From a virus, in the IMG/VR virus record IMGVR_UViG_3300045450_000074, positions 1 to 47,341 of that record: 47,341 nt of DNA; one strand, written 5' to 3'. Position numbers and translations under genes: made by a program. The notes under the pieces are model-generated. The model had not been told where the DNA came from, did not search any database, and was given only the letters and a program-made list of their open reading frames with translations. Below, one piece after another: positions 128-22,954 of the stretch (positions within the stretch are counted from its first letter, which is position 1; each line of letters begins with the position of its first letter).

Positions 128-670
128 GTGCTGCCCGATGCGCGGGCGCGTGAAATCCTTCTCGAAAACATGGCTGCAAAGCCGTGGGATGGGAAGGCGG
201 GCGGCGATTTCTGGCGCTGCGCCCTTGTTACGACGGACGAGGCGTTGGCGGCTATGGCAGCGTTTGCCAAGGAAGCCAGCCCGCCCGCGAGCGATCCCGC
301 GATTCCGGCGGGGGAGGATGGCAAGCAGGCGTTCCGTTCCGGCGCCGCTTGGGCCGTGTCATTTCAGGCCGTGCGCGGGCGTGCTCCCGATCTGAACGAC
401 GTAGACGCCGCCTTTGCCGCCGCAGCCCCCAAGGTCGCGGTCCCTGCGCGGCATTCGTGCGGGTGTGAAGCCGACCCGATCGACGGGCTGGATTACGTCT
501 GTGACCGGCATCTGCGCGAAGGTGGTTCACCACTCGCCGCAGCCCCCAAGGTCGCGAGCGAATGTCCAACATCGCCGGACGGTCGCCATCAAGTCGATAC
601 GTCGATGGAGGAAGGCCCGAACAACTGCTTTCACTGTTCCGCCAAGATGGGGACGAACGATGCACGCTGA
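116..670 (+). CDS. hypothetical Cys/His-rich protein (184 aa)
   Basis: ORF track. ATG overlaps the stop of the upstream gene (ATGA) and GC3 is high. Contains CGC..C..H and C..CFHC clusters and two copies of the PKVA-encoding repeat. Confidence 0.6.
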   Translation: MSAAVLPDARAREILLENMAAKPWDGKAGGDFWRCALVTTDEALAAMAAFAKEASPPASDPAIPAGEDGKQAFRSGAAWAVSFQAVRGRAPDLNDVDAAFAAAAPKVAVPARHSCGCEADPIDGLDYVCDRHLREGGSPLAAAPKVASECPTSPDGRHQVDTSMEEGPNNCFHCSAKMGTNDAR

Positions 671-990
671 TCTTCGCAACGCGGTCATCGCGTCCGTCCG
701 TCGCCGCGTCGAACAAGGCGACTGCCCGACCGAACCGGCCCATACCGTCGAGACGCTCGAAAACGTCATCCTTGATCTAGCCCCCAAGGTCGCGAGCGAG
801 GATCAGGCCGCCCGTGACCGCCGCATGTACGAACAAGGCCGACGCGACGAACGCGCGGGCGAACCGGAGGCTTTCGTATGACCTGCAACACCTGCAATAG
901 CTTCGGCTATCTGCTGACCGCGCCGTCCACCTGTTCGGCTGGCGGTGAGCGCGTGACCTGCCCGGTATGCTCCCCCAAGGTCGCGAGCGA
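426..990 (+). repeat. four dispersed copies of cccccaaggtcgcg(agcga)
   Basis: Copies at 426-439 (14 nt core, then diverges), 543-561, 781-799 and 972-990 (19/19 identical). Every copy is read as P-K-V-A(-S) in three consecutive ORFs that use two different genomic frames. Confidence 0.9.
660..881 (+). CDS. hypothetical protein (73 aa)
   Basis: Internal ATG of ORF 414..881 at 660, overlapping the end of the previous gene. Carries repeat copy 3. Confidence 0.5.
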   Translation: MHADLRNAVIASVRRRVEQGDCPTEPAHTVETLENVILDLAPKVASEDQAARDRRMYEQGRRDERAGEPEAFV

Positions 991-1150
991 CACCGGGGCG
1001 GGGTTGCGGGAGGCGTTGCGGTATCTCCGCGATGCTGCTGACAGCGTGTCAGACAGACTCAATACCAGCCTGTTGGACGAAGCACTCGCTAAGGCCGACG
1101 CAGCCCTAGCCACCCCCACCAATGCGACGGACGGGGCGACGGGCGCATGA
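878..1150 (+). CDS. hypothetical zinc-ribbon-like protein (90 aa)
   Basis: ORF track with ATGA overlap to the upstream gene. Has CNTC ... CPVC cysteine pairs and carries repeat copy 4. Confidence 0.6.
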   Translation: MTCNTCNSFGYLLTAPSTCSAGGERVTCPVCSPKVASDTGAGLREALRYLRDAADSVSDRLNTSLLDEALAKADAALATPTNATDGATGA

Positions 1151-1308
1151 TCGAAAACCCGCAAGCCGTCATCGCCGACCTCGCGCGGGTCAAGACGATG
1201 TTCCAAGCCCGCACGATCGCCCTCGTCCTCGGCGCCGAACCGCCATCCCCGGAGCTGTTCGCCAGCGAGACGAACAAGGACCGCAACGCCAAGGAGGAAC
1301 GGCCGTGA
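1147..1308 (+). CDS. hypothetical protein (53 aa)
   Basis: ATGA overlap with the previous stop. MIENPQAVIADLARVK... read by eye (below the track size cutoff). Confidence 0.45.
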   Translation: MIENPQAVIADLARVKTMFQARTIALVLGAEPPSPELFASETNKDRNAKEERP

Positions 1309-1466
1309 TGTTGTGCCTACTGTTTCACAAATGGACGCGCTGGCGGACTATCCGCGCTGGCGAGCTGAAAAAGGACGGCAAGGTCGCCGGCTTCTACGTT
1401 CAACAGCAACGCCAGTGCGGCCGATGCCGAAAGATCGAGTTGCGCCTTGAGGATGCGCTCCCATGA
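1308..1466 (+). CDS. small protein with FHKW motif and CGRC pair (52 aa), DUF1660-like
   Basis: In frame with ORF 1122..1466. AAGGAGGA RBS at 1291-1298. Sequence MLCLLFHKWTRW... Confidence 0.5.
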   Translation: MLCLLFHKWTRWRTIRAGELKKDGKVAGFYVQQQRQCGRCRKIELRLEDALP

Positions 1467-1603
1467 GCCGCGAGACGAAATGCCGGAATTGCGCCGGCAA
1501 GGGCGTAATCAAGATCAAGGGCGGTCCCGGCTGGTGCGGCTGCACCGTCTGCCGCGGCACCGGCAAGGTTCCCGCGCTCACCAAGGCGAGCCGCCGAGCA
1601 TGA
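1463..1603 (+). CDS. DnaJ-type zinc-finger mini-protein (46 aa)
   Basis: ATGA overlap. Two CxxCxGxG motifs (CRNCAGKG, CTVCRGTG) read by eye. Confidence 0.6.
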   Translation: MSRETKCRNCAGKGVIKIKGGPGWCGCTVCRGTGKVPALTKASRRA

Positions 1604-1785
1604 GCCGGGCAACCCCGCAAGCGCGCGAGCTGCTTGCCGCCGCGATCCAGGCCGGCGGCCCCGAGTGGCGCAACGCCGCGGATTCGGTCCGCTCGGGAAG
1701 TTGGGGTAACGTGTGGACCGCCGCCGCGCTGGTGGCGATCGACAAGGCACTCAGGACCGAACCGGACAGCGACGATGACACCTGA
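1600..1785 (+). CDS. hypothetical protein (61 aa)
   Basis: ATGA overlap. In frame with ORF 1447..1785. Confidence 0.5.
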   Translation: MSRATPQARELLAAAIQAGGPEWRNAADSVRSGSWGNVWTAAALVAIDKALRTEPDSDDDT

Positions 1786-2362
1786 AAAGAAGAAGGCGCA
1801 GACCGCCGGCCTCAAGCGCGGCGGATCGCGCAACCCGGCCAAGCTCACCGAATTCGAGCGCGCGTTCTGCCTCCACTATTGCGGGGCGGCCCTCGGCGTC
1901 GGCTCTCGCGCCGCGCAGCTCGCCGGCTACAACGGGAGCGCCCCGGCCAACTTCAAGCGCTACGCCTATGAGGTCCTCCAACGGCCGCGCGTCGTGGCCG
2001 AGATCGAGCGGCTCCGGGCGGCGCGGGTCGAGCGCCTCTCGATCACGGCCGACGAGGTCCTCCTCGACCTCGTGGCGATCCGCGACAAGGCCCGCCTCCT
2101 CCCCGCCACGAGCGCGAACCTAAAGGTCGAGTTGTCGGCGGTCGAGAAGATCGGCGACCACGTCGGCGTGGCGGCGTTCCGCAAGCAACTCGGCTTGGGC
2201 GGACCGGGCGGCGGGCCTATAGAGATCGCGGACGCCGAATGGCTGGCGACCGCTACGGACGAGGAGCTAGACCACCTTGAGCGCGCCCGCTCGATCATTG
2301 ACCGTCGCGCCGGGGTCGTATCCCCGGATTCCGACGAGGGAAGCGATACGTCGGGAGCGTGA
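1775..2362 (+). CDS. terS: terminase small subunit (Terminase_2-like)
   Basis: Internal ATG of ORF 1634..2362. The LTEFERAFCLHY...AAQLAGY...VLQRPRVVAEIERL pattern is typical of terS. Lies immediately upstream of terL. Confidence 0.8.
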   Translation: MTPEKKKAQTAGLKRGGSRNPAKLTEFERAFCLHYCGAALGVGSRAAQLAGYNGSAPANFKRYAYEVLQRPRVVAEIERLRAARVERLSITADEVLLDLVAIRDKARLLPATSANLKVELSAVEKIGDHVGVAAFRKQLGLGGPGGGPIEIADAEWLATATDEELDHLERARSIIDRRAGVVSPDSDEGSDTSGA

Positions 2363-2375
2363 GCGCCGGCAACGG

Positions 2376-4013
2376 ATGCTCGACCGCGAGCGGGTCGCAC
2401 GCGAGGGCGCGGCGATCCGCGAGCGCTGCTCGTCCCTGATCGAGTTCGTCCGCGAATTCTGGCCGGTCCTCGAACCGTCACGCGAGTTCAAGGATGGATG
2501 GGCGATCCAGGCGGTTTGCGACCACCTTGAGGCCGTGAGCGACGGCAAAATCCAATATCTGCTCATCACGATCCCGCCGGGCATGATGAAATCGCTTCTC
2601 GTCGCCGTGTTCTGGCCGGCATGGGAATGGGCGACGCGCGACGCCTCGCTCCGCTACCTCACGTCGTCGTTCTCGCGGCCGAACGTGATCCGCGACAACT
2701 CCAAGATGCGGAAGCTCGTCGAGAGCGAGAAATATCAGGCGCTGTTCCCCGAGGTGCGCCTCGATCCGACGAGCAACGCCAAGGACAAGTTCGAGAACCT
2801 CAAGACCGGCAACCGCGAGGGTCGCGCGTTTGAGAGCATGACGGGCGGGCGCGGCGACCGGGTCATTATCGACGATCCGCATTCGGTCGACTCGGCCGAG
2901 TCGGAGACGCAGCGCGAGGCGACGGTCCAGACGTTCCGCGAGGCGATCCCCGACCGCCTCAACGATCTCACGAAATCCGTGATCGTCGTGATTATGCAGC
3001 GGCTCCACGCCAAGGACGTCGCCGGCACGATCATTTCGCTCGGCCTTCCGTACGTCCACCTCAATTTGCCGATGGAATTCGAGCCGACGCGCGAGGTGAA
3101 CGGCCTCAAGGTCGACAACCGGTGCCGCACCTATGCGAACGACAATTCCCTTCTGTTCGAGGACCCGCGGACGGAGGAGGGCGAGCTGTTGTTCCCGGAG
3201 CGCTTCCCGGCGCCCGAGGTCGCGAAGCTCCGCCACGTCAAAGGCTCGTACGCATGGGCCGGGCAGTATCAGCAACGGCCGTCGGCCCGTGAGGGCGGCC
3301 TGTTCAAACGCGCATGGTTCGCGGGGAAGATCATCGCTCGCGCCGGTCTCCCGACCTCGGGCGTCAAGCGCGTGCGCGCCTGGGATTTCGCCTCGTCGAC
3401 CGAAGCGAAGGGCGATCCCGATTGGACGGCCGGCGTCCGCATGTTCCGGCACGGCACCGATTATTACATCGACAGCGTCGACCGCGACCGGCTCTCCCCC
3501 GGCAACGTGCAAGCGCTGGTCAAGACTCGAGCCGAGACCGACCCGGTCGGGACGATCGTCCGCATCCCGATCGACCCGGCTCAGGCGGGCGAATTCCAGG
3601 CGCAAAGCTACATCACCGCCCTCGCCGGCTATCCGCTCAAGGCCGAGCGTCCGGGGTCGGCCGGGAACAAGGTCGGCCGCGCGCTCCCCATGAGCATCCA
3701 GGCCGAATTCGGGCATATCTACCTCGTCAACAGCGGGCCGCCCGAGGAGGGCCTCGACGCGTGGATCGAGACGTTCCTCGACGAGCTATGCTCGTTCCCG
3801 ACCGCGGCGCACGACGACCAAGTCGACGCCGCAGCCGACGCGTTCAATGAGCTGGCTATCGGCGGCTCCCAAGAGTTCGCCTCGGCCTCCTCGGGCAAGT
3901 CGGAAATGCTCAAGACGGCGGAGCGTGACAGCCGATACGGGTTCGGCGATAACACGCCCAACACCGGGCGGGGATACGGGTCCGCGCCCTCCCGCATGCA
4001 AGGATTTCGATAG
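2376..4013 (+). CDS. terL: terminase large subunit
   Basis: ORF 2277..4013. Walker A-like PPGMMKS and Walker B DRVIIDDPH, with a C-terminal nuclease-like region with conserved Asp (AHDDQVDA). The start could instead be 2277. Confidence 0.9.
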   Translation: MLDRERVAREGAAIRERCSSLIEFVREFWPVLEPSREFKDGWAIQAVCDHLEAVSDGKIQYLLITIPPGMMKSLLVAVFWPAWEWATRDASLRYLTSSFSRPNVIRDNSKMRKLVESEKYQALFPEVRLDPTSNAKDKFENLKTGNREGRAFESMTGGRGDRVIIDDPHSVDSAESETQREATVQTFREAIPDRLNDLTKSVIVVIMQRLHAKDVAGTIISLGLPYVHLNLPMEFEPTREVNGLKVDNRCRTYANDNSLLFEDPRTEEGELLFPERFPAPEVAKLRHVKGSYAWAGQYQQRPSAREGGLFKRAWFAGKIIARAGLPTSGVKRVRAWDFASSTEAKGDPDWTAGVRMFRHGTDYYIDSVDRDRLSPGNVQALVKTRAETDPVGTIVRIPIDPAQAGEFQAQSYITALAGYPLKAERPGSAGNKVGRALPMSIQAEFGHIYLVNSGPPEEGLDAWIETFLDELCSFPTAAHDDQVDAAADAFNELAIGGSQEFASASSGKSEMLKTAERDSRYGFGDNTPNTGRGYGSAPSRMQGFR

Positions 4014-6182
4014 ATGGCTCTCCCTCCCGCGATCCGCCGCCCGCTTGAGGAGGCCGGGTTCCTCGCGCCGATCGCGCAGCCGGATCGCCTACCGACACGG
4101 CCCACCAACGAAGCGCCCGAGGCGCCGCCATCCATCGGCAACATGATTTCCCGGTCGGCCGATACGAGTTGGTTCCCGTCGAGCTATCTCAAGCTGCTCG
4201 CCGAGAACGACGACAGCGTCCTCAAGAGGGATGGCGGCGGCCTCAAGCTCTACGACGCGCTCCTCGACGACGACGTCGCATTCTCGGCGTTGCAGCAACG
4301 CCGCATGGCGATCACATCGCGCGATTGGGAGGTGACACCGGGCGACGACAAGGACCCCCGCTCCGTCAAGGCGGCGGACGAGTTCCGCGCCATGCTCAAG
4401 GAGGTCGGGTTCGACCGGGTGACGAACGGCCTCCATTACGGGGTTTGGTACGGCTACGCCATCGCCGAGGCGGTCTATTCGATCCGCGATTTCGACGGTC
4501 GGCCGATCGTGTGGCTCTCCGACCTGATCGTCCCCGATCGCCGTTGGTTTGGGTTCACGATGGAAGGCGAGTTGCGGTTCGTCACCCCGTACGCCCGCGG
4601 CCTCGACGACGAGACGCTCCCGCCGAACAAGTTTATCGTCGTCCGGACCGGCGGATCGCACGACTTCGCGTTCTACGGCCTGGGGCTGGCGCATTGGGCG
4701 TATTGGCCCATTTTCTTCAAGCGGTCGGCGCTCAAATTTTGGGCGCTCTACCTCGAAAAGTTCGGCATGCCGACCGTTGCGATCGGCTTCCCGGAGACCG
4801 AGCAGAACGATCAGGAGAAGCTCGACAAGCGCCTCGCCGCCGCGGTCGCGGTCGGGCAGGACCGGGCCGTCCTCGTCCCCGAGGAGACGCTCAAAAACGA
4901 CACGCTCAAACTGATCGAGGCCGAGCGCAGCGGCGCCGGCTCGTCCTCGTACAAGGATTTCGTCGGCACGAACGACGACGCGTTGATCCGCGTGATCCTC
5001 GGCCAGACCGGCACGTCGAAGGCGACCCCCGGCGGCCTCGGCGGCGACGGACAGGCCAAGAAGGACGAGGGGGTCAAGCGCGAGATCGTCAAGGCCGACG
5101 CCGACCTCATTTCCGACGCGATCCACAAGCTCGGCCGGTGGCTCACGACATGGAACCACGGCCCCGACGTGGCCCCGCCGAGCGTCTATCGCGTCCTCGA
5201 CGATGCCGAGGACCTCAACACCGTCGCCGAGCGTGACGTCAAGCTCAACGGGATCGGGATCAAGCGGACGGAGGACAGTATCCACGAGGTCTACGGCGAT
5301 GGGTACGAGATCGACCGTCTCAGCGAGGAGCAGAAGGCGGCCAACGCGTCGGCGCTTGCCGCGGCGAAGGCCGTTCCCGGCGCCCCAGGCGCCCGGCCGG
5401 CCGCGAACGACAACCCCCGCGCCAAGATCGCCGCGGCTCGCGCAGAGTTCGGCGTCGACGACGAGGCCCCGCTCTACGTCTATCGCCAGCTCAAGCCCGA
5501 GAGCGCCCGCGCGCTCATCGCATGGGCGGAGAGCGTCGGGATCAAGGCGACTGTCCCGGCCGCGGAAATGCACACGACGGTCCTTTACTCGAAACGGCCC
5601 GTCGATTGGTTCTCGCTCGGCGAGAGCTGGCAACCGGAGGTTACTGTTTCCAAGGGCGGGCCGCGCAAGATCGAGCGCCTCGGCGACAAGGGCGCCGTCG
5701 TCCTCCGGTTCGAGAACAGCGACATGCGCTATCGGCACGAGAGCATGGTCGAGCGCGGCGCTTCGCACGATTACGACGAGTTCCGCATTCACCTCACGCT
5801 ATCCTACGACGTGCCGGCCGACTTCGACCTCGATGCGATCGAGCCGTTCACCGGCGAGCTTAAATTCGGCCCGGAAATGTTCGAGCGGATCAAGGACAAG
5901 CCGTTCGATCCCGCCTCGCTCGACTTCGCGGCCGACGAGGAAGACGCGATCGACCGGCTCATTGCGAAGCTCGTCGAGGAGGCCGACCCCGTGTTCGCCG
6001 CCATGGGCGACGCGCTCAAGACCTCGTTGCAGGGGGTCAAGACGGTCGAGGGCGCCCGCGTCGCGATCCTTGAGGCGTTCGAGCGCATGCCAGTCGAGCG
6101 GCTCGCCGAGCTGACCGCCCTTCCCATGCTCGCCGTCCGTGCCGGCGCGCTGGCGGGGGCGGAGAACGACGTCAAAGCGTGA
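4014..6182 (+). CDS. portal protein (Mu gp29/DUF935 type) with an inserted 2H phosphoesterase-like module
   Basis: 722-aa ORF directly after terL with DUF935-like core motifs. At about nt 5466-5915 an insert carries HTTV and HLTL motifs, followed by a typical portal C-terminal tail. Confidence 0.9.
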   Translation: MALPPAIRRPLEEAGFLAPIAQPDRLPTRPTNEAPEAPPSIGNMISRSADTSWFPSSYLKLLAENDDSVLKRDGGGLKLYDALLDDDVAFSALQQRRMAITSRDWEVTPGDDKDPRSVKAADEFRAMLKEVGFDRVTNGLHYGVWYGYAIAEAVYSIRDFDGRPIVWLSDLIVPDRRWFGFTMEGELRFVTPYARGLDDETLPPNKFIVVRTGGSHDFAFYGLGLAHWAYWPIFFKRSALKFWALYLEKFGMPTVAIGFPETEQNDQEKLDKRLAAAVAVGQDRAVLVPEETLKNDTLKLIEAERSGAGSSSYKDFVGTNDDALIRVILGQTGTSKATPGGLGGDGQAKKDEGVKREIVKADADLISDAIHKLGRWLTTWNHGPDVAPPSVYRVLDDAEDLNTVAERDVKLNGIGIKRTEDSIHEVYGDGYEIDRLSEEQKAANASALAAAKAVPGAPGARPAANDNPRAKIAAARAEFGVDDEAPLYVYRQLKPESARALIAWAESVGIKATVPAAEMHTTVLYSKRPVDWFSLGESWQPEVTVSKGGPRKIERLGDKGAVVLRFENSDMRYRHESMVERGASHDYDEFRIHLTLSYDVPADFDLDAIEPFTGELKFGPEMFERIKDKPFDPASLDFAADEEDAIDRLIAKLVEEADPVFAAMGDALKTSLQGVKTVEGARVAILEAFERMPVERLAELTALPMLAVRAGALAGAENDVKA

Positions 6183-6427: not shown

Positions 6428-6466
6428 AAGGCCCGCCGTGGGAGCAACACGGCGGGCCTTTTCGTG
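6428..6466 (+). terminator. intrinsic terminator
   Basis: Perfect 13-bp stem, aaggcccgccgtg (6428-6440) paired with cacggcgggcctt (6448-6460). 7-nt loop, then a ttttc tail. Confidence 0.7.
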
Positions 6467-6512
6467 TCTGCGTTCCCGGCGTAACGATGTGGCCTCACCA
6501 ATGGAGGACCCT

Positions 6513-6692
6513 ATGCGCTCACCTTTCCGCTTCGCCCCGCTCGCCGCCCTCGCCCTTGCCGCATGCGGCGGCTCAGGCTCTCCGCCGCCGTATAGCAATG
6601 GCACGACGCCGGCCGGCGGGTCGTCGGGACAGCCGTCGGAGAACAATTCGAACGGATCGCCGGCAAAACAGCCGAACATGCCGGCGCAATAG
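6513..6692 (+). CDS. small lipoprotein (59 aa)
   Basis: GGAGGA RBS at 6503-6508. MRSPFRFAPLAALALAAC has a lipobox (LAAC). The mature part is Gly/Ser/Pro/Asn-rich. Confidence 0.7.
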   Translation: MRSPFRFAPLAALALAACGGSGSPPPYSNGTTPAGGSSGQPSENNSNGSPAKQPNMPAQ

Positions 6693-6920
6693 GTATTGCG
6701 CGAGGCGCGTAAGATCGGCATGGTCGAACGCGTTGACGGGGGATGCGCGACACCGCGTACCTGGGGGGCCGGCGAGTGATTCCGCCGGTTCCCTCGTCGA
6801 TATCCGGGATGACCACCACCCGCGGGTGCTTGTCAGTTACGCCCGGTGGCGCCTCGGAATAGGTACGAGGGCGGAGCGGCTCCACTGGCAACGGTGGGGC
6901 CGTTCGCGTATCCCCTCCCC

Positions 6921-8375
6921 ATGAGGTTCGACGCCACCGCCGGAGCCAAGCTCCTACCGCTCCAAATGCGGGCCGCCGACGTCGAGCGATGGCTCCTCGA
7001 CCGCGATCCCACCGCCTCGGGCGCATACGGGACGATCTCCAAGGAGGAATATGCGCGCTCGTTCACCGCCGCGCGCACCGCCGGGACCGATATTGCCGAT
7101 GACCTCTATTTCGCGTTCGTGGACGTCGTGTCCCGGTCCGGGACGGAGGACGATTTCTCCAAGCTCGTCATGCCGATCCTACGGAAAAAGGGATGGCTCG
7201 GCGGCGACGAGGGGCAGATCGCCCGACGGGTCGAGCTGATCTATGACACGAACCTCCGCCTCGCTCGCGCCGCGGGCCGGTGGGATCGCTATTGGTCGAC
7301 CCGCGCCGCGTTCCCGTACCTCCTCGCCTTCACGGCCGGCGACGAGCGCGTCCGCCATCCGCCCGAAAGCAAGCATTCCGACCACCGCGCGTGGGACGGC
7401 ATCCTCCTGCCGATCGAGCATCCGTTCTGGCGCGAATATTGGACCCCGCTCGGGTTCCGGTGCCGGTGCGGTATCCGCCAGCTCACCCGGTCGCAGTTCG
7501 CGCGCCTCAAGCGGGGCGAGACGAGCGAGAGCGATCTCGCCGCGCGCAAGGCCCGCCTGGGGCCGCCCGTGTTCCTCGCGCCCTCCCGGCCGATCGCGGC
7601 GCAGCTCGACGCCATGGTCGACGCGACGAACGCCTCGCGCATGCCGGGAATGCCGGCAGTCGATCCCGCCGAGACCGCGGCGGCCGGCCGCGCCGCCCTC
7701 TCGCGCGAGCAGCACGACGAGGTGACGGCGCGGATCACGGCGGAGCTTGACCGCGTCGGCCTCGGCGCGCCCGCCCCGCCCCCCGCGCCCGCGCCACAGC
7801 GCGCCGACGTCGAGAAGCTCGGCGGCGAGGCCCGATCCTACGTCCTCGACAAGGGGCGCAAGGCGGGCGTCGAATATCTCGTCGCGTTCGACGAGGCGAC
7901 CGGCCGGGAATATCAGCGGAGCAAGGGATCGCGATCGGCCGTCTCGTTCTCGCCCGCGCTGCTCTCCGCCATGCGGAACCCGGCGCGCTCGATCATCCTT
8001 CACCACAACCACCCCGGATCGACATCGCTCTCCGGCGTCGACGTGTTGCAGCTCAACGAGGTCGGCGCCCGCTCGATATGGGCGCACGGCCACAACGGGT
8101 CCTCATTCTACGCCGAGCGGGCCGGCGACACGCCGATCGCAAAGGCGACGTTCAACTCCATCGCCGAGCGCATCCGCGTCGAGCTGCAAGGCGCCGTCAC
8201 GGCGGGGACGATGACGGTCGACGACGCCGTCCTCATGCACAATCACCTGACGTGGCGCGTCATGAGCGACCTCGGCCTCCTGATCTATCGCGCCGAGCTG
8301 GCCGGCGCGAGCGGCGAGGCCTTCGCCCGGCATGCCGACCTGTTCCGCGCCATCATTGCAAGGCTCACCTCATGA
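6921..8375 (+). CDS. MuF/SPP1 gp7-type minor head protein fused to a C-terminal RadC-like JAB/MPN domain
   Basis: ORF 6846..8375. MuF signature GDERVRHPPE...WDGILLP...GFRCRCG, then a Pro/Ala linker, then EYLVAFDE...ILHHNHPGSTSLSGVD. The start may be GTG 6846 or ATG 6921. Confidence 0.85.
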   Translation: MRFDATAGAKLLPLQMRAADVERWLLDRDPTASGAYGTISKEEYARSFTAARTAGTDIADDLYFAFVDVVSRSGTEDDFSKLVMPILRKKGWLGGDEGQIARRVELIYDTNLRLARAAGRWDRYWSTRAAFPYLLAFTAGDERVRHPPESKHSDHRAWDGILLPIEHPFWREYWTPLGFRCRCGIRQLTRSQFARLKRGETSESDLAARKARLGPPVFLAPSRPIAAQLDAMVDATNASRMPGMPAVDPAETAAAGRAALSREQHDEVTARITAELDRVGLGAPAPPPAPAPQRADVEKLGGEARSYVLDKGRKAGVEYLVAFDEATGREYQRSKGSRSAVSFSPALLSAMRNPARSIILHHNHPGSTSLSGVDVLQLNEVGARSIWAHGHNGSSFYAERAGDTPIAKATFNSIAERIRVELQGAVTAGTMTVDDAVLMHNHLTWRVMSDLGLLIYRAELAGASGEAFARHADLFRAIIARLTS

Positions 8376-8527
8376 TTATCGACCCCCCTTCGGAGCTGGC
8401 CGGCCTCTCGGCATGGGCGCGGTTCCGCCGTGAAATGGAGCGCCTGGCCAAAGCCGATCCGGGGAACAGCGAGATCGCCGAACAGCTCAACCTTGCCCGG
8501 ACGATCGAGGCGCAGAAGCGCGGATAG
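8372..8527 (+). CDS. hypothetical protein (51 aa)
   Basis: ATGA overlap with the MuF stop. In frame with ORF 8078..8527. Confidence 0.5.
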   Translation: MIIDPPSELAGLSAWARFRREMERLAKADPGNSEIAEQLNLARTIEAQKRG

Positions 8528-14930: not shown

Positions 14931-15298
14931 GCGATCCGCCGATAACGAAGCGTGTCGACCGGGGCATTCGCGAACGCGGCTTGAGCGCGAGCCTCGTCGG
15001 CCGTCCCGACACCCCATGCAACGCCGTCGTCATAGAGATACTCGAACAGGGCGTCGGGGTCGTGCTGATCGAGCTGATCGACCGTGAAGGAATTGTTGAG
15101 CGCGCGGAGCCGGTTTGCCTCATCGCGCGCCTTGAGCGTCGCGGACGCGAGATTGATTTCGAGCCAGCTCCACCGCCCCGCCGTCGTCGACGAATTGGCG
15201 ATCGTCCGCAACTGCCGTTGCGTCATGGTCTGAAACACCGCGCTCTTGCGAGCGGTCTCGGCTGCAATCTGCTCGTTCACGGTCGGCGCGGTCGCCAT
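14927..15298 (-). CDS. hypothetical protein (123 aa), first gene of the antisense cassette
   Basis: Internal ATG of ORF 14927..15415, preceded by a GAAGGA RBS. Confidence 0.6.
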   Translation of the reverse strand: MATAPTVNEQIAAETARKSAVFQTMTQRQLRTIANSSTTAGRWSWLEINLASATLKARDEANRLRALNNSFTVDQLDQHDPDALFEYLYDDGVAWGVGTADEARAQAAFANAPVDTLRYRRIA

Positions 15299-15457
15299 CG
15301 TCGTCAATCCTTCGCGTTGTGCGTAAGAACCATTGCGCCAGCTCGGCGCGGATCGCAAGCCACAATCTACGCGGCGTGCGTAAAAAGATGCGGCGCCCGG
15401 ATTGCTCGCGGGCATGCAGCCTTATCGCCACCTCGCGCGCGGGGTATCTCTCCGGCC
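15299..15457. promoter_or_regulatory. divergent regulatory region (antisense cassette versus head operon)
   Basis: 159-bp gap between divergent starts. Contains tgcgtaag (15319), tgcgtaaaaa (15377-15386) and the 19-mer cgcgggcatgcagccttat (15407-15425), which also occurs at 20703-20721. Confidence 0.5.
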
Positions 15458-16417
15458 ATGAGCAAACGTTGGATCGAGGCCTTTCGCATCGGCGGCAAGG
15501 CAAGTCGCGGGATCAAGCCCGAGCATTTGGCCGAGGTCGTCACCGACGATTTCGGCGCGAACCCCCGCGCGCTGTGCTTCGGCCACCCGAAGTCCGACGA
15601 CCCGGCCGCCGGCCTCATCACCGGCGCCAAGGTCGAGGGAAACTCGCTCATGGTCGAGGTGGACAAGCTCTCGCCCGAGGCGATCACGGGGATCAAGGAC
15701 GGGAAGTGGCTCAACCGCTCGGCCGCCTTTTTCGACCCGCACCACGAGGCGAACCCGCGCCCCGGCAAATGGTCGCTCCGCCACGTCGGCCTCCTCGGCG
15801 CCGCGGCGCCCGGCATCCCCGGCATGGGATCGCTGCAAAAGGCCCTCGCCTTCGACGCCGACGACGAGCTAATCACCGAAGGCGATCCGGCTGACGCCGT
15901 CATCTTCGCTGGCGCCCCGACCGAAACGCATTTCATTTTCGAGAGCAAGGAACCGACCATGGACCCGAACGACAAGAAGCCCGACGCCGCGCAGATCGAG
16001 CGCGAAAACGCCTTCGCGGCGCGGGTTCGCAACCATTTCGAGGCGAGCAACAAGAGCGCAATCAATGCTCTCGTGCTGGCCGGTAAGGTCCTCCCGGCCG
16101 AGGTCGACGGCCTCACCACCTCGTTCAACGCGCTCGACCCCGAGGGCGAGGAGCTGACGTTCGGCGCCGGTGACAATACCACCAAGGCGACCGCCGTCTC
16201 GCATCTGCTCGCGTTCATGGCGTCGGCCCTCCCGAAGCGCGTCGACGTCTCCGGCCAGCGCAAGTCGCCCGAGACCCAGTTCGACGCCAAGGGCGGCGAG
16301 ACGTCGGCCAATCCCCAGGCCGAAGCGCGCCGCCTCTCCGCCGAGGCCCGCGCGCTCATGGCCAAGGACCCCGGTCTCACGTTCGAGGCCGCGCTCGAAA
16401 CCCTCTCGGCCGACTAA
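15458..16417 (+). CDS. capsid scaffolding protein/prohead protease (P2 gpO / Mu gpI-like)
   Basis: Internal ATG of ORF 14981..16417. MSKRWIEAFRIGG...GHPKSDDPAAG...RHVGLLGAAAPGIPG resembles the gpO family layout. Position is upstream of the capsid gene. Confidence 0.75.
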   Translation: MSKRWIEAFRIGGKASRGIKPEHLAEVVTDDFGANPRALCFGHPKSDDPAAGLITGAKVEGNSLMVEVDKLSPEAITGIKDGKWLNRSAAFFDPHHEANPRPGKWSLRHVGLLGAAAPGIPGMGSLQKALAFDADDELITEGDPADAVIFAGAPTETHFIFESKEPTMDPNDKKPDAAQIERENAFAARVRNHFEASNKSAINALVLAGKVLPAEVDGLTTSFNALDPEGEELTFGAGDNTTKATAVSHLLAFMASALPKRVDVSGQRKSPETQFDAKGGETSANPQAEARRLSAEARALMAKDPGLTFEAALETLSAD

Positions 16418-16861: not shown

Positions 16862-17827
16862 ATGGCTCAGGCCCCTTTCGTCATCACTCCCGCGCTTGTC
16901 GCCATTGCGGTCGACTATTCGGGGGTCAACCGCACCGCCCGCGGCTACATCGCCGACCTCGTCGCGCCGCGCATGCGCGTCGACGCGCCGTTGTTCCGCT
17001 ACCCCCAGTACAAGCTGGAGGAGGCGTTCACCGTCTACGACAATCAGGTCGACCGCCTCGGTCGCCTGAACGAGATCGTCGAGAGCGCGACCGAGACCAC
17101 GGGCGCCACGCTCGACTATGGTCTGCTCGAAAAGGTCCCGTTCCGCGACGAGGCCGCGGCCCGCGCCGCGTCGATCCCCTTCCCGCTCAAGGCTCGCGCC
17201 GTGCGGAACGTGATCGACAAGAATCAGCTCGCCCGCGAAATCCGCGTCGCGTCCATGGTGACGACCGCCGGCAACTATGCCAGCGGCTACGTGACCGCGG
17301 TCGGCGCGACGAAGTGGTCGGACCCGTCGGTCGATATCCCGGCGATCGTGATGGATCAGATCGCGGCCATGCTGATCCCCGGCAATGTCGGCACGACCTC
17401 GCGTCGCGTGATGAACATGCTTCGCCGCCACCCCAAGATTTCGACCGCGCTTGGCGGCTCGGCGACGTCGGGTCGGATCGCGACCGAGCAGGAGGTCGCG
17501 ACCGTCCTCGGCCTCGAACGGATCATCGTCGGCAACGGGTTGAAGCAAACCACGAAGCGCGGGCAGACCGTATCGACCGGCAATATCTGGCCGGATTTCT
17601 TCGCGATCCACTACCAGGGCGCGCAGGGTCCGGACGGGACGACGCTCGACGGCGGCTCGCCCAACTTCCTCACCACGTTCCAGTGGGGCGACGTCGTCTC
17701 GGGCGAGTTGCCCTATCGGCCGGGCGAATTGGGCCTGTGGGGCGGCGTCGGCGTTCTCACCGGCGAGAGCATCGTCGAGAAGGTCGTCGCGCCGTTCGCG
17801 GGCGCGATCTTCACCGGCGTTCTCTGA
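16862..17827 (+). CDS. major capsid protein (gpE-like, HK97 fold)
   Basis: ORF track. Size (321 aa), position after the scaffold and decoration genes, and gpE-like sequence pattern. Confidence 0.85.
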   Translation: MAQAPFVITPALVAIAVDYSGVNRTARGYIADLVAPRMRVDAPLFRYPQYKLEEAFTVYDNQVDRLGRLNEIVESATETTGATLDYGLLEKVPFRDEAAARAASIPFPLKARAVRNVIDKNQLAREIRVASMVTTAGNYASGYVTAVGATKWSDPSVDIPAIVMDQIAAMLIPGNVGTTSRRVMNMLRRHPKISTALGGSATSGRIATEQEVATVLGLERIIVGNGLKQTTKRGQTVSTGNIWPDFFAIHYQGAQGPDGTTLDGGSPNFLTTFQWGDVVSGELPYRPGELGLWGGVGVLTGESIVEKVVAPFAGAIFTGVL

Positions 17828-22649: not shown

Positions 22650-22954
22650 CCGAGCTGGAAAAGGACTGCGCGCGGTTCGGGATCGACCCGGCCGCGTTCA
22701 ATCGCAAACGCCCCGATGAGCAGGACGCGACGCCGGTATGGCCGGACATGCTCAATTCGTTCGCCCTCTTCTGTGATGCGCCGTGGAATTGGGTGACGGT
22801 CGGCCTCGGCGGCGTTGTCCGGACCAATATCAGCCGGATTGAGCTTGAGGCTTCGGCCCGCGGCCTCAACGTCGAGTATACCCCGGCGATTTTCGCCGAC
22901 GTTCGTATTATGGAGGACGAAGCACTCAAATTTTGGAGCCGCCGCAATGGCTGA
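22194..22954 (+). CDS. tail assembly chaperone frameshift product (G-T-like, -1 PRF)
   Basis: The -1 frame is open from 22538 to 22954. G_GGA_AAC at 22565-22571 is in the correct zero-frame phase. Confidence 0.7.
22565..22571 (+). other. -1 programmed frameshift slippery heptamer G_GGA_AAC
   Basis: Zero-frame codons are GGA AAC (R-E-G-N). After a -1 slip the reading is GGG AAA, continuing into ORF 22538..22954. Confidence 0.7.

What the first reader, a model, noticed from the sequence alone, without database searches (positions are those of the whole stretch)
7815..8375. MuF-type head protein ends in a RadC-like JAB/MPN metalloprotease domain
The N-terminal ~300 aa match the MuF/SPP1 gp7 signature (GDERVRH, WDGILLP, GFRCRCG). 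After a Pro/Ala linker (GAPAPPPAPAPQ), the C-terminal ~180 aa read EYLVAFDEATG...SIILHHNHPGSTSLSGVDVLQL. This is the Glu ... H-x-H-x(6)-S-x-x-D arrangement of JAMM/MPN+ enzymes and is closest to the RadC HNHPSG motif, with one residue fewer than the canonical x7 spacer.

MuF proteins are packaged inside capsids. They are known carriers of C-terminal effector or toxin domains, often followed by a small immunity gene, and here a 51-aa ORF (8372..8527) overlaps the stop.

A virion-delivered JAB isopeptidase could in principle reverse host ubiquitin-like conjugation defences such as CBASS Cap2 priming or Bil-type tail modification. That functional link is speculation.
Basis: partly seen in the sequence, partly recalled or inferred. 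Interest (0 to 1): 0.75.

Follow-up and report, generated by a model that had tools for sequence, protein, structure and literature searches.

The report
Phage head protein carrying RadC-like enzyme
A phage head protein that normally rides inside the capsid is fused to an intact but uncharacterised metal-dependent enzyme domain (a distant cousin of RadC/JAB), and wherever this domain occurs it comes with its own tiny 50-residue partner protein, which looks like an injected effector plus its keeper.

Summary
One ORF (6921..8375; alternative starts 6846 and 6966) encodes three parts:
- a MuF minor head domain (res 23-275);
- a Pro/Ala linker (res 282-293);
- a ~190-aa C-terminal domain with E318, H362-N-H364-P, S371-x-x-D374.

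These residues are nearly invariant in 125 homologues. The spacer is 6 residues, one short of canonical.

The domain belongs to a large family with no curated model (622 representative clusters). Its closest relative is RadC (hhalign 93%, E 3e-7), but it falls below Pfam's RadC cut-off. An AlphaFold model (pLDDT 97.7) finds JAMM/RadC structures first, at weak scores.

MuF+domain fusions are common (75 of 86 mid-size homologues). The domain also sits in giant DarB-like polyvalent virion proteins.

The 51-aa downstream ORF (8372..8527) is real:
- it follows all 15 MuF-JAB loci examined;
- it is fused in frame in two proteins;
- it lies nested in the +1 frame just after the domain in all 6 polyvalent genes examined, including three cultured phages.

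Best reading: a capsid-delivered hydrolase effector with a dedicated partner, probably an inhibitor. The substrate is unknown. The ubiquitin-like deconjugase idea has no specific support. This is a new variant of the MuF-effector theme.

The parts
6921..8375 (+). MuF-JAB fusion gene, 484 aa plus stop. The start is ambiguous: GTG 6846, ATG 6921, or ATG 6966 (the start of the database copy P0001).
   Evidence: Continuous ORF. P0001 is 100% identical from 6966. Homologues of 450-620 aa have the same two-domain layout.
6987..7745 (+). MuF (phage Mu gpF / SPP1 gp7-type) minor head protein domain, res 23-275. It includes GDERVRH (7338-7358), WDGILLP (7392-7412) and GFRCRCG (7452-7472).
   Evidence: phrog_220 E 5.5e-40. 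Pfam Phage_Mu_F 22.6 bits, below its cut-off. tblastn to Mu-like phage F proteins over res 28-276. Coordinates.
7764..7799 (+). Pro/Ala linker GAPAPPPAPAPQ (res 282-293) between the two domains.
   Evidence: Read directly from the sequence. Homologues are variable and Pro/Ala-rich at this point (positions 289-299).
7800..8372 (+). RadC-like JAB/MPN+ domain (res 294-484): a JAB core plus a ~75-aa helical C-terminal extension.
   Evidence: Exhaustive search: 622 representative homologues. AF2 model pLDDT 97.7. Foldseek finds JAMM/RadC structures first. hhalign to RadC 93%.
7872..7874 (+). E318, the putative catalytic Glu, at the N-terminal end of strand 1.
   Evidence: Conserved in 123/124 homologues. 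Lies at the start of strand E31-36 of the model. Falls in the Glu-rich segment (E118/E119/E121) of YicR in hhalign.
8004..8015 (+). H362-N-H364-P365, the putative metal-binding HxH, at the C-terminal end of a strand.
   Evidence: 124, 123, 123 and 124 of 125 conserved. Aligns with RadC HNHP.
8031..8042 (+). S371-x-x-D374, the JAMM Ser and the third metal ligand Asp, at the N-terminus of a helix. The spacer from H364 is 6 residues.
   Evidence: S371 125/125 and D374 123/125. Helix H84-91 of the model. One-residue gap relative to RadC.
8085..8093 (+). H389-G-H391, a family-specific conserved His pair in the motif AHGHxGS.
   Evidence: H389 95/125, G390 110/125, H391 106/125. Aligns near the LDH motif of RadC. 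Role unknown.
8244..8288 (+). H442 to Y456: conserved residues of the helical extension (H442 105/122, G452 104/122, Y456 118/122).
   Evidence: for conservation; for secondary structure. Role unknown.
8372..8527 (+). Partner micro-protein of 51 aa (MIIDPPSELAGLSAWARFRREM...). Its start overlaps the JAB stop codon (ATGA). Family motif: IDPPSPFxxxxEWxxFxxEM.
   Evidence: Present after all 15 MuF-JAB loci examined. A motif-only search returned 10 hits, all next to a JAB domain. Fused in frame in P0049 and P0126. Nested in the +1 frame in 6 of 6 polyvalent genes. No Pfam or PHROG family.

Best explanation
**Shown.** The gene encodes a virion minor head protein of the MuF type. A flexible Pro/Ala linker tethers its C-terminus to a catalytically intact (MPN+) JAB-superfamily domain. 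The domain belongs to a large family without a curated model, and that family is a distant sister of RadC. The architecture, the conserved catalytic-type residues, the family's distribution and the strict linkage to the small gene are all shown here.

**Inferred from what is established for MuF proteins (SPP1 gp7, MuF toxins, polyvalent proteins).** MuF docks on the portal, so the protein is packaged in a few copies and leaves the capsid with the DNA. The enzyme domain would then act in the newly infected cell as an early effector. Counter-defence or host takeover is the most likely role.

**Inferred chemistry.** Metal-dependent hydrolysis through E318, H362, H364, S371 and D374. I lean towards cleavage of a peptide or isopeptide bond in a host protein, for two reasons. 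Every JAB enzyme with a known activity is a peptidase. The full peptidase residue set, including the Ser, is invariant here. A nucleic-acid substrate, as predicted for the RadC clade, is not excluded.

**Inferred role of the partner.** The 51-aa protein encoded at 8372..8527 is translationally coupled to the enzyme gene. I propose it keeps the enzyme inactive in the producing cell, possibly with its invariant N-terminal I-D-P-P-S-P-F peptide acting as a pseudo-substrate. As a separate polypeptide it would not travel with the ejected effector.
For: **Domain identity.**
- The motif is conserved across 125 homologues.
- hhalign against RadC gives 93.2%, E 2.9e-7. Against YicR alone it gives 86%, including the Glu segment.
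- Pfam RadC gives weak hits in 16 of 37 members. One family member passes the cut-off (P0025, 24.6 vs 22.1 bits).
- The AF2 model has pLDDT 97.7, with the Glu at a strand start, HxH at a strand end and Asp at a helix N-terminus. This is the RadC/JAMM layout described in PMC11981726.
- Foldseek top PDB hits are PfJAMM1, BubCD, RadC and AF2198. Viral hits include many 'minor capsid protein' models plus RadC and MPN entries.

**Virion or effector context.**
- Gene order is small terminase, large terminase, portal, MuF.
- 75 of 86 mid-size homologues carry Phage_Mu_F.
- The same domain sits in giant DarB-like antirestriction proteins of phages PBC5, Atu_ph08 and 45A6. It also occurs with ART-PolyVal and LPD39.
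- The adjacent portal carries an Acb1 anti-CBASS domain. The closest relative, L001, has the same portal fusion.
- The literature treats MuF fusions as injected effectors (PMC5512222; PMC5576092).

**Partner.**
- 15 of 15 MuF-JAB loci carry it.
- 10 of 10 motif-only hits lie next to the domain.
- Two proteins carry it as an in-frame fusion.
- It is nested in the +1 frame in 6 of 6 polyvalent genes. That frame is the better conserved one.

**Not a head protease.** The phage has its own maturation protease (14981..16417) and major head protein.
Against: - No enzymatic activity is known for any RadC-clade protein, so the chemistry is inference.
- The structural matches to solved JAMMs are weak: best E 0.049, TM 0.35-0.50.
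- The window protein is below the Pfam cut-offs for both RadC and Phage_Mu_F.
- I could not inspect model coordinates, so the metal-site geometry is unchecked.
- The extra conserved His and Tyr residues (H389, H391, H442, Y456) are unexplained. They could mean a different active-site chemistry.
- Two natural in-frame fusions of enzyme and partner sit awkwardly with an inhibitor that must stay behind.
- The AF2 model of one such fusion neither supports nor refutes docking: pTM 0.76, partner pLDDT 74-89.
- Packaging and ejection of this protein are assumed from other MuF proteins, not shown.
Confidence: 0.55

Rival explanations
1. Ubl-deconjugating isopeptidase. The injected JAB domain would mimic Cap3 or Bil-type deubiquitinases. 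It would strip host ubiquitin-like conjugates, such as Cap2-primed CD-NTases or Bil-modified tail proteins, and so complement the Acb1 domain on the portal.
For: The best solved-structure matches are Ubl-processing JAMMs: PfJAMM1 5ld9/5lda and the Citrobacter BubCD ubiquitination-like operon protein. The full JAMM peptidase residue set is invariant. The neighbouring portal carries the anti-CBASS nuclease Acb1, so this phage already pre-packages an anti-CBASS activity.
Against: Sequence affinity is to RadC, not to Ubl-processing JAMMs: Pfam JAB PF01398 has no hits and Prok-JAB matches 1 of 37 members. PADLOC defence-system JAB models match 1 of 37 at E 0.016. The RadC and toxin JAB clades are reported to lack the groove for the Ubl tail (PMC5512222; PMC3482391). 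The Foldseek matches are all weak, and deaminases follow closely in the list. The family's wide spread in MuF and polyvalent proteins is not tied to any Ubl system that I could test.
Confidence: 0.12
2. Nucleic-acid-processing enzyme, as predicted for RadC. The domain would act on DNA or RNA, or on a nucleotide. Possible roles are protecting or processing the incoming genome end to which MuF is bound, or destroying a host nucleic-acid defence component.
For: RadC is the closest family. Aravind and colleagues predict nuclease or nucleic-acid processing for RadC in polyvalent proteins and for toxin JAB domains. The domain occurs in DarB-like antirestriction giants beside methylase and helicase modules. 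The extra conserved His cluster (H389, H391, H442) could build a second metal site, as in phosphoesterases (inference). The fold is shared with nucleotide deaminases.
Confidence: 0.25
3. Classical MuF polymorphic toxin used for bacterial competition. The C-terminal domain would be a growth-inhibiting toxin released with particles from lysogens. The small ORF would be its immunity protein, protecting the lysogen.
For: The layout matches the MuF-toxin definition: a MuF domain, a C-terminal extension of at least 100 aa, and a downstream ORF under 150 aa (PMC5576092). JAB domains with dedicated immunity proteins are known toxins in other polymorphic toxin families (Tox-JAB-1/2). The small ORF is strictly linked.
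Against: Toxicity is untested. There is no detectable similarity to Tox-JAB-1 (1 of 37 members at E 0.017) or to DUF4329. Immunity proteins are normally not fused to, or nested inside, their toxin gene, yet both arrangements occur here. The family is common in polyvalent virion proteins of virulent-type or uncharacterised phages, where anti-host early functions are the usual reading. I did not establish a temperate lifestyle for this phage.
Confidence: 0.15
4. Assembly or processing role. The domain would be a cis-acting or capsid-internal protease. It might trim MuF, release Acb1 from the portal or process scaffold, with the small protein acting as an assembly chaperone. It would not be an injected effector.
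For: Portal-Acb1 would need release from the portal to act in the cytoplasm, and it co-occurs with MuF-JAB here and in L001. The JAB chemistry fits site-specific cleavage.
Against: The phage has a dedicated head maturation protease (phrog_976, E 6.8e-40). The domain also occurs alone in proteins of about 200 aa and inside giant polyvalent proteins that have no portal fusion context. Other related loci showed no detectable match to this window's portal or Acb1 sequences, though divergent portals could have been missed.
Confidence: 0.05

Closest known systems
RadC / YicR family (Pfam PF04002 RadC-like JAB domain; PDB 2qlc)
   Same: Invariant Glu at the start of strand 1. H-N-H-P at a strand end. 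S-x-x-D at a helix start. A later His-containing strand followed by xSFxE-like residues. hhalign 93%, E 2.9e-7. RadC is the only recurrent Pfam and NCBIfam weak hit. Like RadC, the domain is found in polyvalent proteins of mobile elements.
   Different: Below the Pfam cut-off (17.8 vs 22.1 bits). The spacer between HxH and Ser is 6 residues, not 7. AHGHxGS replaces LDHxxxG. There is an added ~75-aa helical extension with conserved H442, G452 and Y456. The N-terminal partner is MuF, not the HhH/UPF0758 N-domain. It has a dedicated 50-aa partner. The small DUF987 gene (yeeT) that follows E. coli yeeS is unrelated in sequence.
MuF polymorphic toxins and MuF-effector fusions (Jamet et al. 2017, PMC5576092; Zhang et al. 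2012, PMC3482391; Iyer et al. 2017, PMC5512222)
   Same: An N-terminal MuF head-protein domain encoded after the portal. A C-terminal enzymatic extension. A small ORF immediately downstream. Predicted packaging into the capsid and delivery with the DNA.
   Different: The C-terminal domain is none of the toxin domains listed for MuF in the text of those papers that I could read: nucleases, ART, RelA-like, metallopeptidase, PBECR, 2H, PRTase, zeta kinase. The Ct_MAD domain of proteobacterial MuF proteins is tied to the COG2369 C-terminus and to cultured temperate phages. This domain gave no MuF-linked tblastn hit in 50,697 phage records, so the two are probably different. I did not run the Ct_MAD profile itself. 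The partner gene can be fused or nested, which is unusual for immunity genes.
Ubl-processing JAMM/MPN+ peptidases (PfJAMM1 5ld9, AF2198 1oi0, BubCD 9ea5; Cap3-type)
   Same: The E...HxH...S-x-x-D residue set and the fold. They are the top Foldseek PDB hits (probability 0.80-0.97).
   Different: Weak scores: E at least 0.049, TM 0.35 normalised to the query. Identity is 12-14%. No profile-level sequence match. No Ubl, E1 or E2 genes were identified in the window, although not every ORF was scanned.
[quoted passage not shown]
   Same: JAB-superfamily domains used as delivered effectors, each paired with a dedicated small immunity protein.
   Different: Different delivery routes (RHS, T6SS, T7SS). 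No significant sequence match: Toxin-JAB1 in 1 of 37 members at E 0.017, DUF4329 in none. The immunity families differ (Imm65, Imm-NTF2-2).

Membership tests
JAB/MPN+ (JAMM) superfamily | Glu upstream, then H-x-H, then S-x-x-D catalytic/metal-binding residues in order. | tested here: met
   E318, H362/H364, S371 and D374 are present and 98-100% conserved in 125 homologues. The HxH-to-Ser spacer is 6 residues rather than 7.
JAB/MPN+ (JAMM) superfamily | JAB fold: Glu at a strand start, HxH at a strand end, Asp at the N-terminus of the following helix. | tested here: met
   The AF2 model (pLDDT 97.7) has strands E31-36 and E70-76 and helix H84-91 in those positions. The top PDB hits are JAMM1, BubCD, RadC and AF2198, but the scores are modest: E 0.05-0.13, TM to target 0.45-0.50.
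JAB/MPN+ (JAMM) superfamily | Bound Zn and hydrolytic activity. | not testable with these tools
RadC (Pfam PF04002) | Score at or above the Pfam gathering cut-off of 22.1 bits. | tested here: not met
   The window domain scores 17.8 bits. 16 of 37 family members give only weak hits, best E 8.9e-4. One polyvalent member, P0025, passes at 24.6 bits.
RadC (Pfam PF04002) | Profile-profile homology to bona fide RadC proteins. | tested here: met
   hhalign of A1 against 22 RadC sequences: 93.2%, E 2.9e-7, 70 columns. Against YicR alone: 86%, E 5e-6.
RadC (Pfam PF04002) | HNHPSG-x3-PS-x2-D motif (7-residue spacer), the C-terminal LDH...G..SF.E.G motif, and a domain of about 120 aa. | tested here: not met
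   Here the motif is HHNHPGSTSLSGVD with a 6-residue spacer. AHGHNGSSFYAER stands in place of LDH...SFAERG. A ~75-aa helical extension is added.
MuF / Phage_Mu_F minor head proteins | Sequence membership of the N-terminal domain. | tested here: met
   phrog_220 E 5.5e-40. tblastn to the F proteins of Mu-like phages. Pfam PF04233 scores only 22.6 vs 29.6 bits for this protein, but 75 of 86 homologues match it, best E 1.4e-26.
MuF / Phage_Mu_F minor head proteins | Position in the packaging module: terminase, then portal, then MuF. | tested here: met
   Small terminase 1634..2362, large terminase 2277..4013, portal 4014..6182, MuF 6921..8375.
MuF / Phage_Mu_F minor head proteins | Incorporation into the capsid and ejection with the DNA. 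| not testable with these tools
   Assumed from SPP1 gp7 and MuF literature.
MuF polymorphic toxin systems (Jamet 2017) | A MuF domain, a C-terminal extension of at least 100 aa, and a downstream ORF under 150 aa. | tested here: met
   The extension is about 200 aa and a 51-aa ORF overlaps the stop codon.
MuF polymorphic toxin systems (Jamet 2017) | The C-terminal domain is a recognised toxin domain. | tested here: not met
   No Pfam toxin family is matched. Toxin-JAB1 matches 1 of 37 members at E 0.017.
MuF polymorphic toxin systems (Jamet 2017) | Toxicity that is neutralised by the downstream protein. | not testable with these tools
   Needs expression experiments.
MuF polymorphic toxin systems (Jamet 2017) | Carried by a temperate phage or prophage. 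| not tested
   I did not look for an integrase or repressor. One relative sits in a Brevundimonas genome contig (L010).
Ubl-deconjugating defence-type JAB enzymes (Cap3, Bil) | Sequence similarity to JAB components of defence systems. | tested here: not met
   PADLOC gives 0 hits for the window domain. One of 37 members matches the 'JAB' model at E 0.016.
Ubl-deconjugating defence-type JAB enzymes (Cap3, Bil) | A groove that accommodates the Ubl C-terminal tail, and activity on Ubl conjugates. | not testable with these tools
   No coordinates and no assays. The literature says the RadC and toxin JAB clades lack the groove.
Polyvalent-protein domains (Iyer 2017) | Recurrence of the domain inside giant multidomain virion or conjugative proteins. 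| tested here: met
   29 of the best 150 homologues exceed 1500 aa. The domain co-occurs with ART-PolyVal and LPD39. It is in DarB-like proteins of PBC5, Atu_ph08 and 45A6. This holds for the family. The window protein itself is a simple two-domain fusion.

The most novel reading that the evidence does not exclude
[quoted passage not shown] The enzyme, tethered to MuF or embedded in a polyvalent protein, is injected and disables a host defence or host process. The micro-protein blocks its active site in the producing cell and is left behind at ejection. To keep the two as separate polypeptides, giant polyvalent genes carry the keeper as a conserved overlapping gene in the +1 frame. If this is right, the pair would give the first experimental handle on the unknown biochemistry of the whole RadC clade.
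Probability: 0.3. Interest if true: 0.78.

Novelty: new variant of a known kind. Interest (0 to 1): 0.6.

Why it matters
**RadC biochemistry.** RadC-like JAB proteins are among the most widespread bacterial and phage proteins whose biochemical activity is still unknown. Their name is acknowledged to be misleading. This family places a RadC-like active site in a setting where the biological logic is fairly clear, namely a protein packaged in the capsid and delivered with the DNA. It also pairs the domain with a dedicated micro-protein that very probably binds it. That gives concrete experiments: toxicity and neutralisation, co-purification, substrate trapping, and plating of catalytic mutants on hosts with different defence systems.

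**Annotation.** The family has 622 representative clusters at 50% identity and no Pfam, NCBIfam or functional PHROG annotation. Thousands of phage 'minor capsid proteins' are therefore under-annotated.

**Overlapping genes.** The partner ORF is nested in another frame inside giant polyvalent genes of cultured phages (PBC5, Atu_ph08, 45A6). This would be a clean, testable case of a conserved overlapping gene.

**Pre-packaged counter-defence.** The portal-Acb1 fusion next door suggests that this phage loads its capsid with at least one, and probably two, counter-defence enzymes.

Tried and rejected
**Searches that found little or nothing.**
- The word-indexed protein search with the C-terminal domain found nothing. 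With a 37-sequence profile it found only 4 proteins. The exhaustive search found 622 representatives. The indexed tool is blind to this family, so I could not get source names or contexts for most homologues.
- A single-sequence PDB search gave only a chance hit to a polyomavirus VP1. The profile found RadC 2qlc at E 0.021 over 26 residues.
I used the single protein and a degenerate DNA pattern instead.
- My first DNA pattern had the wrong spacing and found nothing. After a check on local loci the corrected pattern worked.
- P0001 is not on record in the contig look-up, so the source organism of the window is not identified. Weak nucleotide matches point to phages of sphingomonads and other alphaproteobacteria.

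**Structure prediction of the enzyme-partner pair.**
- MAFFT misaligned the separate small-ORF row, so I dropped that row.
- The natural fusion P0049 was modelled instead: pLDDT 88, pTM 0.76. Without coordinates or contacts, docking of the partner on the active site cannot be judged.

**Explanations rejected.**
- A separate gene for the C-terminal part: the ORF is continuous and the layout is conserved.
- An inactive MPN- domain: all catalytic residues are invariant.
- A head maturation protease role: a dedicated protease is present.
- Similarity of the partner to E. coli YeeT/DUF987: none.
- Identity with Tox-JAB-1 or DUF4329: no match.
- Identity with defence-system JABs: no match.

**Not done.** I did not run the published Ct_MAD profile, because reading the 118 kb HMM was too costly. 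Its non-identity is inferred only from the lack of MuF-linked hits in cultured phages.
Full report
**What is in the sequence**

The window is a phage or prophage late-gene region. The genes identified are:
- small terminase, 1634..2362;
- large terminase, 2277..4013;
- a Mu-type portal, 4014..6182;
- the gene of interest;
- fibre and adaptor-like genes;
- a head maturation protease, 14981..16417;
- a major head protein, 16862..17827.

The gene of interest is one continuous ORF (6846..8375). The last is the start of an identical 469-aa protein in the public collection (P0001). The 51-aa ORF 8372..8527 starts with an ATG that overlaps the TGA stop codon, as ATGA.

**The N-terminal half is MuF**

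- Residues 23-275 match phrog_220, 'minor head protein and DNA pilot', at E 5.5e-40.
- tblastn finds the F/gp30-type proteins of Mu-like Pseudomonas, Ralstonia and Burkholderia phages over residues 28-276.
- The Pfam Phage_Mu_F score is 22.6 bits, below the cut-off of 29.6. However, 75 of 86 mid-size homologues match that model, the best at E 1.4e-26.

**The C-terminal domain is a JAB-superfamily domain closest to RadC, in a family of its own**

*Family size and architectures.* An exhaustive phmmer search with residues 289-484 found 622 representative proteins at E up to 1e-3, and 191 at E up to 1e-10. The best 150 fall into these classes:
- 86 are 321-700 aa long, mostly with the domain at or near the C-terminus;
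- 24 are short proteins of 320 aa or less, many of them the domain on its own;
- 11 are 701-1500 aa long;
- 29 are giant proteins of more than 1500 aa.

*Conservation.* In an alignment of 125 domains the following are nearly invariant: G312, E318, D324, G328, H361-H362-N363-H364-P365, S369, S371, D374, G382, A388-H389-G390-H391-x-G393, H442, G452 and Y456. This is the Glu...HxH...S-x-x-D set of MPN+ enzymes. Six residues separate the second His from the Ser. RadC has seven, and hhalign opens a one-residue gap at that point.

*Sequence-level comparisons.*
- Pfam gives only sub-threshold RadC hits: 17.8 bits against a cut-off of 22.1 for the window, and 16 of 37 family members at E below 0.1.
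- NCBIfam likewise gives only weak RadC hits, in 18 of 37 members.
- One member inside a 2251-aa protein passes the RadC cut-off (P0025, 24.6 bits).
- Profile-profile comparison with 22 genuine RadC proteins gives 93.2% probability, E 2.9e-7, over 70 columns.
- Comparison against E. coli YicR alone gives 86% and includes the Glu segment.

*Predicted structure.* The AlphaFold model built on 37 sequences is very confident: pLDDT 97.7, pTM 0.91. Its secondary structure puts E318 at the start of a strand, HxH at the end of a strand and D374 at the N-terminus of the next helix. This is the layout described for RadC-like and JAMM domains (PMC11981726). About 75 residues of helices and one strand follow the JAB core and carry H442, G452 and Y456.

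*Structure searches.*
- Against the PDB, Foldseek puts PfJAMM1, Citrobacter BubCD, RadC 2qlc and AF2198 first, then nucleotide deaminases. All scores are weak: best E 0.049, TM 0.45-0.50 normalised to the target.
- Against predicted viral structures there are 17 hits below 1e-3. Most are 'minor capsid protein' models of 520-630 aa from uncultured siphoviruses. They are followed by 'RadC DNA repair', 'MPN domain' and tail-protease entries.

I could not read model coordinates, so the metal-site geometry is not checked.

*Conclusion on membership.* The domain belongs to the JAB superfamily and has RadC as its nearest described relative. It is not a member of RadC as Pfam defines it. It differs in spacer length, in the AHGHxGS motif and in the helical extension.

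**The small downstream ORF is a real, obligate partner**

*MuF-JAB loci.* Using the window domain as query I fetched nine viral contigs and one Brevundimonas genome locus. In all eight MuF-JAB loci among them, an ORF of 49-58 aa overlaps or abuts the stop codon. It shares the motif IDPPSPFxxxxEWxxFxxEM with the window ORF.

*Reverse test.* A degenerate DNA pattern for this motif alone, scanned over 2.9 million viral contigs, returned ten stretches. All ten lie next to a JAB-family domain. Nine follow a MuF-JAB stop codon and one lies inside a polyvalent gene. A further locus, from the contig of P0151, shows the same pair, with the small gene called independently by that project's annotation. 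That makes 15 of 15 MuF-JAB loci.

*Fusions.* Two homologues carry the small protein fused in frame after the domain: P0049 at residues 504-547 and P0126 at residues 462-480.

*Polyvalent genes.* In all six giant polyvalent genes for which I had DNA, a sequence of this small family lies in the +1 frame. It starts about 50-330 nt after the end of the JAB domain, while the main frame stays open.
- Three of the six are IMG/VR viral contigs: L007, L008 and L018.
- The other three are finished cultured phage genomes that were not used to build the profile: Sinorhizobium phage PBC5 (E 1.7e-11), Ruegeria phage 45A6 (E 1.4e-9) and Agrobacterium phage Atu_ph08 (E 2.9e-8).
- Across the six loci, the small frame aligns much better than the main frame: mean BLOSUM62 pair score 55.7 against 18.7.
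- The main-frame translation in this stretch is Arg/Gly/Pro-rich filler.

The small protein has no Pfam or PHROG family.

*What the linkage means.* I read it as evidence that the small protein binds the domain, and that it usually has to be a separate polypeptide.

*Attempt to model the pair.* An AlphaFold model of the natural fusion P0049 shows the following:
- the linker has low confidence (pLDDT 54);
- the partner has moderate confidence (pLDDT 74-89);
- the partner forms two helices preceded by the extended motif;
- pTM is 0.76.

Without contacts, this neither confirms nor refutes docking on the active site.

**How it most likely works**

*Shown.* The two-domain architecture, the intact catalytic-type residues, the family's distribution (MuF fusions, solo forms, polyvalent virion proteins) and the strict linkage with the micro-protein.

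*Inferred from established knowledge.* MuF proteins such as SPP1 gp7 are portal-associated capsid-internal proteins that leave with the DNA. MuF fusions and polyvalent proteins are widely interpreted as injected early effectors (PMC5512222; PMC5576092; PMC3482391).

*Context in this phage.* The neighbouring portal is fused to an Acb1 anti-CBASS phosphodiesterase domain (PF23474, E 1e-34). The closest relative, L001, has the same portal fusion. Fusions of 2H domains to portals were noted before.

*My best explanation.* The domain is a capsid-delivered metal-dependent hydrolase that acts early in the next host. The co-translated micro-protein keeps it in check in the producing cell.

*Chemistry.* I lean to peptide or isopeptide cleavage, because all JAB enzymes of known activity are peptidases and the Ser/Asp arrangement is retained. 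A proline-rich, uncleavable N-terminal peptide in the partner would suit a pseudo-substrate inhibitor. The RadC-clade prediction of a nucleic-acid substrate remains a serious rival. The unexplained extra His residues and the DarB-like antirestriction context favour it.

Defence-system JAB profiles do not match, and RadC-type domains are reported to lack the Ubl-tail groove.

*Other readings.*
- A classical toxin-immunity reading is possible. Fused and nested arrangements are unusual for immunity genes.
- A role as head protease is unlikely, because the phage has its own.

**Comparison with what is known, and novelty**

- MuF-effector fusions with small downstream ORFs are a known kind.
- JAB domains as delivered toxins with immunity proteins are known in other polymorphic toxin families.
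- RadC domains are known in polyvalent proteins.
- In the literature I could search, only two papers mention MuF, 'JAB domain' and phage together, and the parts of them I read do not describe this fusion.

What I did not find described:
- this particular RadC-like family, with its six-residue spacer, extra His/Tyr residues and helical extension;
- its frequent fusion to MuF;
- its dedicated partner micro-protein, including the nested +1-frame arrangement in polyvalent genes.

No curated family covers the domain or the partner.

The Ct_MAD domain of Jamet et al. is probably different. It is tied to the COG2369 C-terminus and to cultured temperate phages, whereas this domain has no MuF-linked hit in 50,697 phage records. 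I did not run their profile.

I therefore rate the finding as a new variant of a known kind.

**Caveats**

- All functional statements are inference.
- The structural matches to solved JAMMs are weak.
- The window protein is below both Pfam cut-offs.
- Packaging is assumed, not shown.
- The nested-ORF observation rests on six loci and on profile E-values plus a simple frame comparison. It is not based on expression data.

Noticed in passing
window 4014..6182 (+): The portal protein (PF06074, res 78-428, E 1e-77) is fused at its C-terminus to an Acb1 anti-CBASS 2H-phosphodiesterase domain (PF23474, res 486-628, E 1e-34). The closest related contig has the same fusion (L001 nt 436..2679, 748 aa). 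The capsid therefore seems to carry a built-in anti-CBASS enzyme. How it would be released from the portal is unclear.
   Followed up: partly
L011 (Sinorhizobium phage PBC5) nt 9611-9748; L022 (Agrobacterium phage Atu_ph08) nt 2102-2236; L023 (Ruegeria phage 45A6) nt 2216-2356; L007 nt 6626-6769; L008 nt 6656-6799; L018 (reverse strand) nt 1573-1716: Inside giant 'DarB-like antirestriction' polyvalent genes, a homologue of the 51-aa partner protein is encoded in the +1 frame just after the JAB-like domain, while the main frame stays open. This holds in 6 of 6 loci. The nested frame is the better conserved one (mean BLOSUM pair score 55.7 vs 18.7). This looks like a conserved overlapping gene. 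Programmed frameshifting is an alternative.
   Followed up: partly
P0049 res 504-547; P0126 res 462-480: Two homologues have the partner micro-protein fused in frame to the C-terminus of the JAB-like domain through a linker of about 40 aa. These are 'Rosetta-stone' fusions that support a physical interaction.
   Followed up: partly
window 6430..6692 (+): Between the portal and MuF genes there is a GC-rich hairpin followed by TTTT (about 6431-6463, terminator-like). After it comes a 59-aa ORF (ATG 6514..6692) with a good Shine-Dalgarno sequence (GGAGGA) and a lipoprotein signal (LAALALAAC-GG). This is a possible moron, for example a superinfection-exclusion lipoprotein.
   Followed up: no
P0016 (1931 aa) and P0090 (3937 aa): These two large homologues each show four separate matched stretches to the JAB-like domain. 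This suggests tandem or repeated copies of the domain within one polyvalent protein.
   Followed up: no
window 22815..26828 (+), and the GC profile at 23001-24000: A 1337-aa ORF has no Pfam or PHROG match. It spans the most GC-rich kilobase of the window (75% against about 66% elsewhere). It may be a tail, tape-measure or internal virion protein. It is unexplained.
   Followed up: no
L024 (E. coli K-12 CP4-44 prophage) nt 1809-2539: The RadC-like gene yeeS is followed directly by the small DUF987 gene yeeT, and then by the cbeA/cbtA antitoxin-toxin pair. This gene order parallels a JAB domain plus micro-protein. YeeT shows no sequence similarity to the partner family.
   Followed up: yes
BFVD hits to the model of window 7785..8372: Many 'minor capsid protein' models of 520-630 aa from uncultured gut siphoviruses and myoviruses share the whole ~190-aa fold (TM to query 0.46-0.65) at only 11-20% identity. 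MuF fusions to this fold may therefore be far more widespread than sequence searches show. I did not check whether they keep the HxH motif.
   Followed up: no
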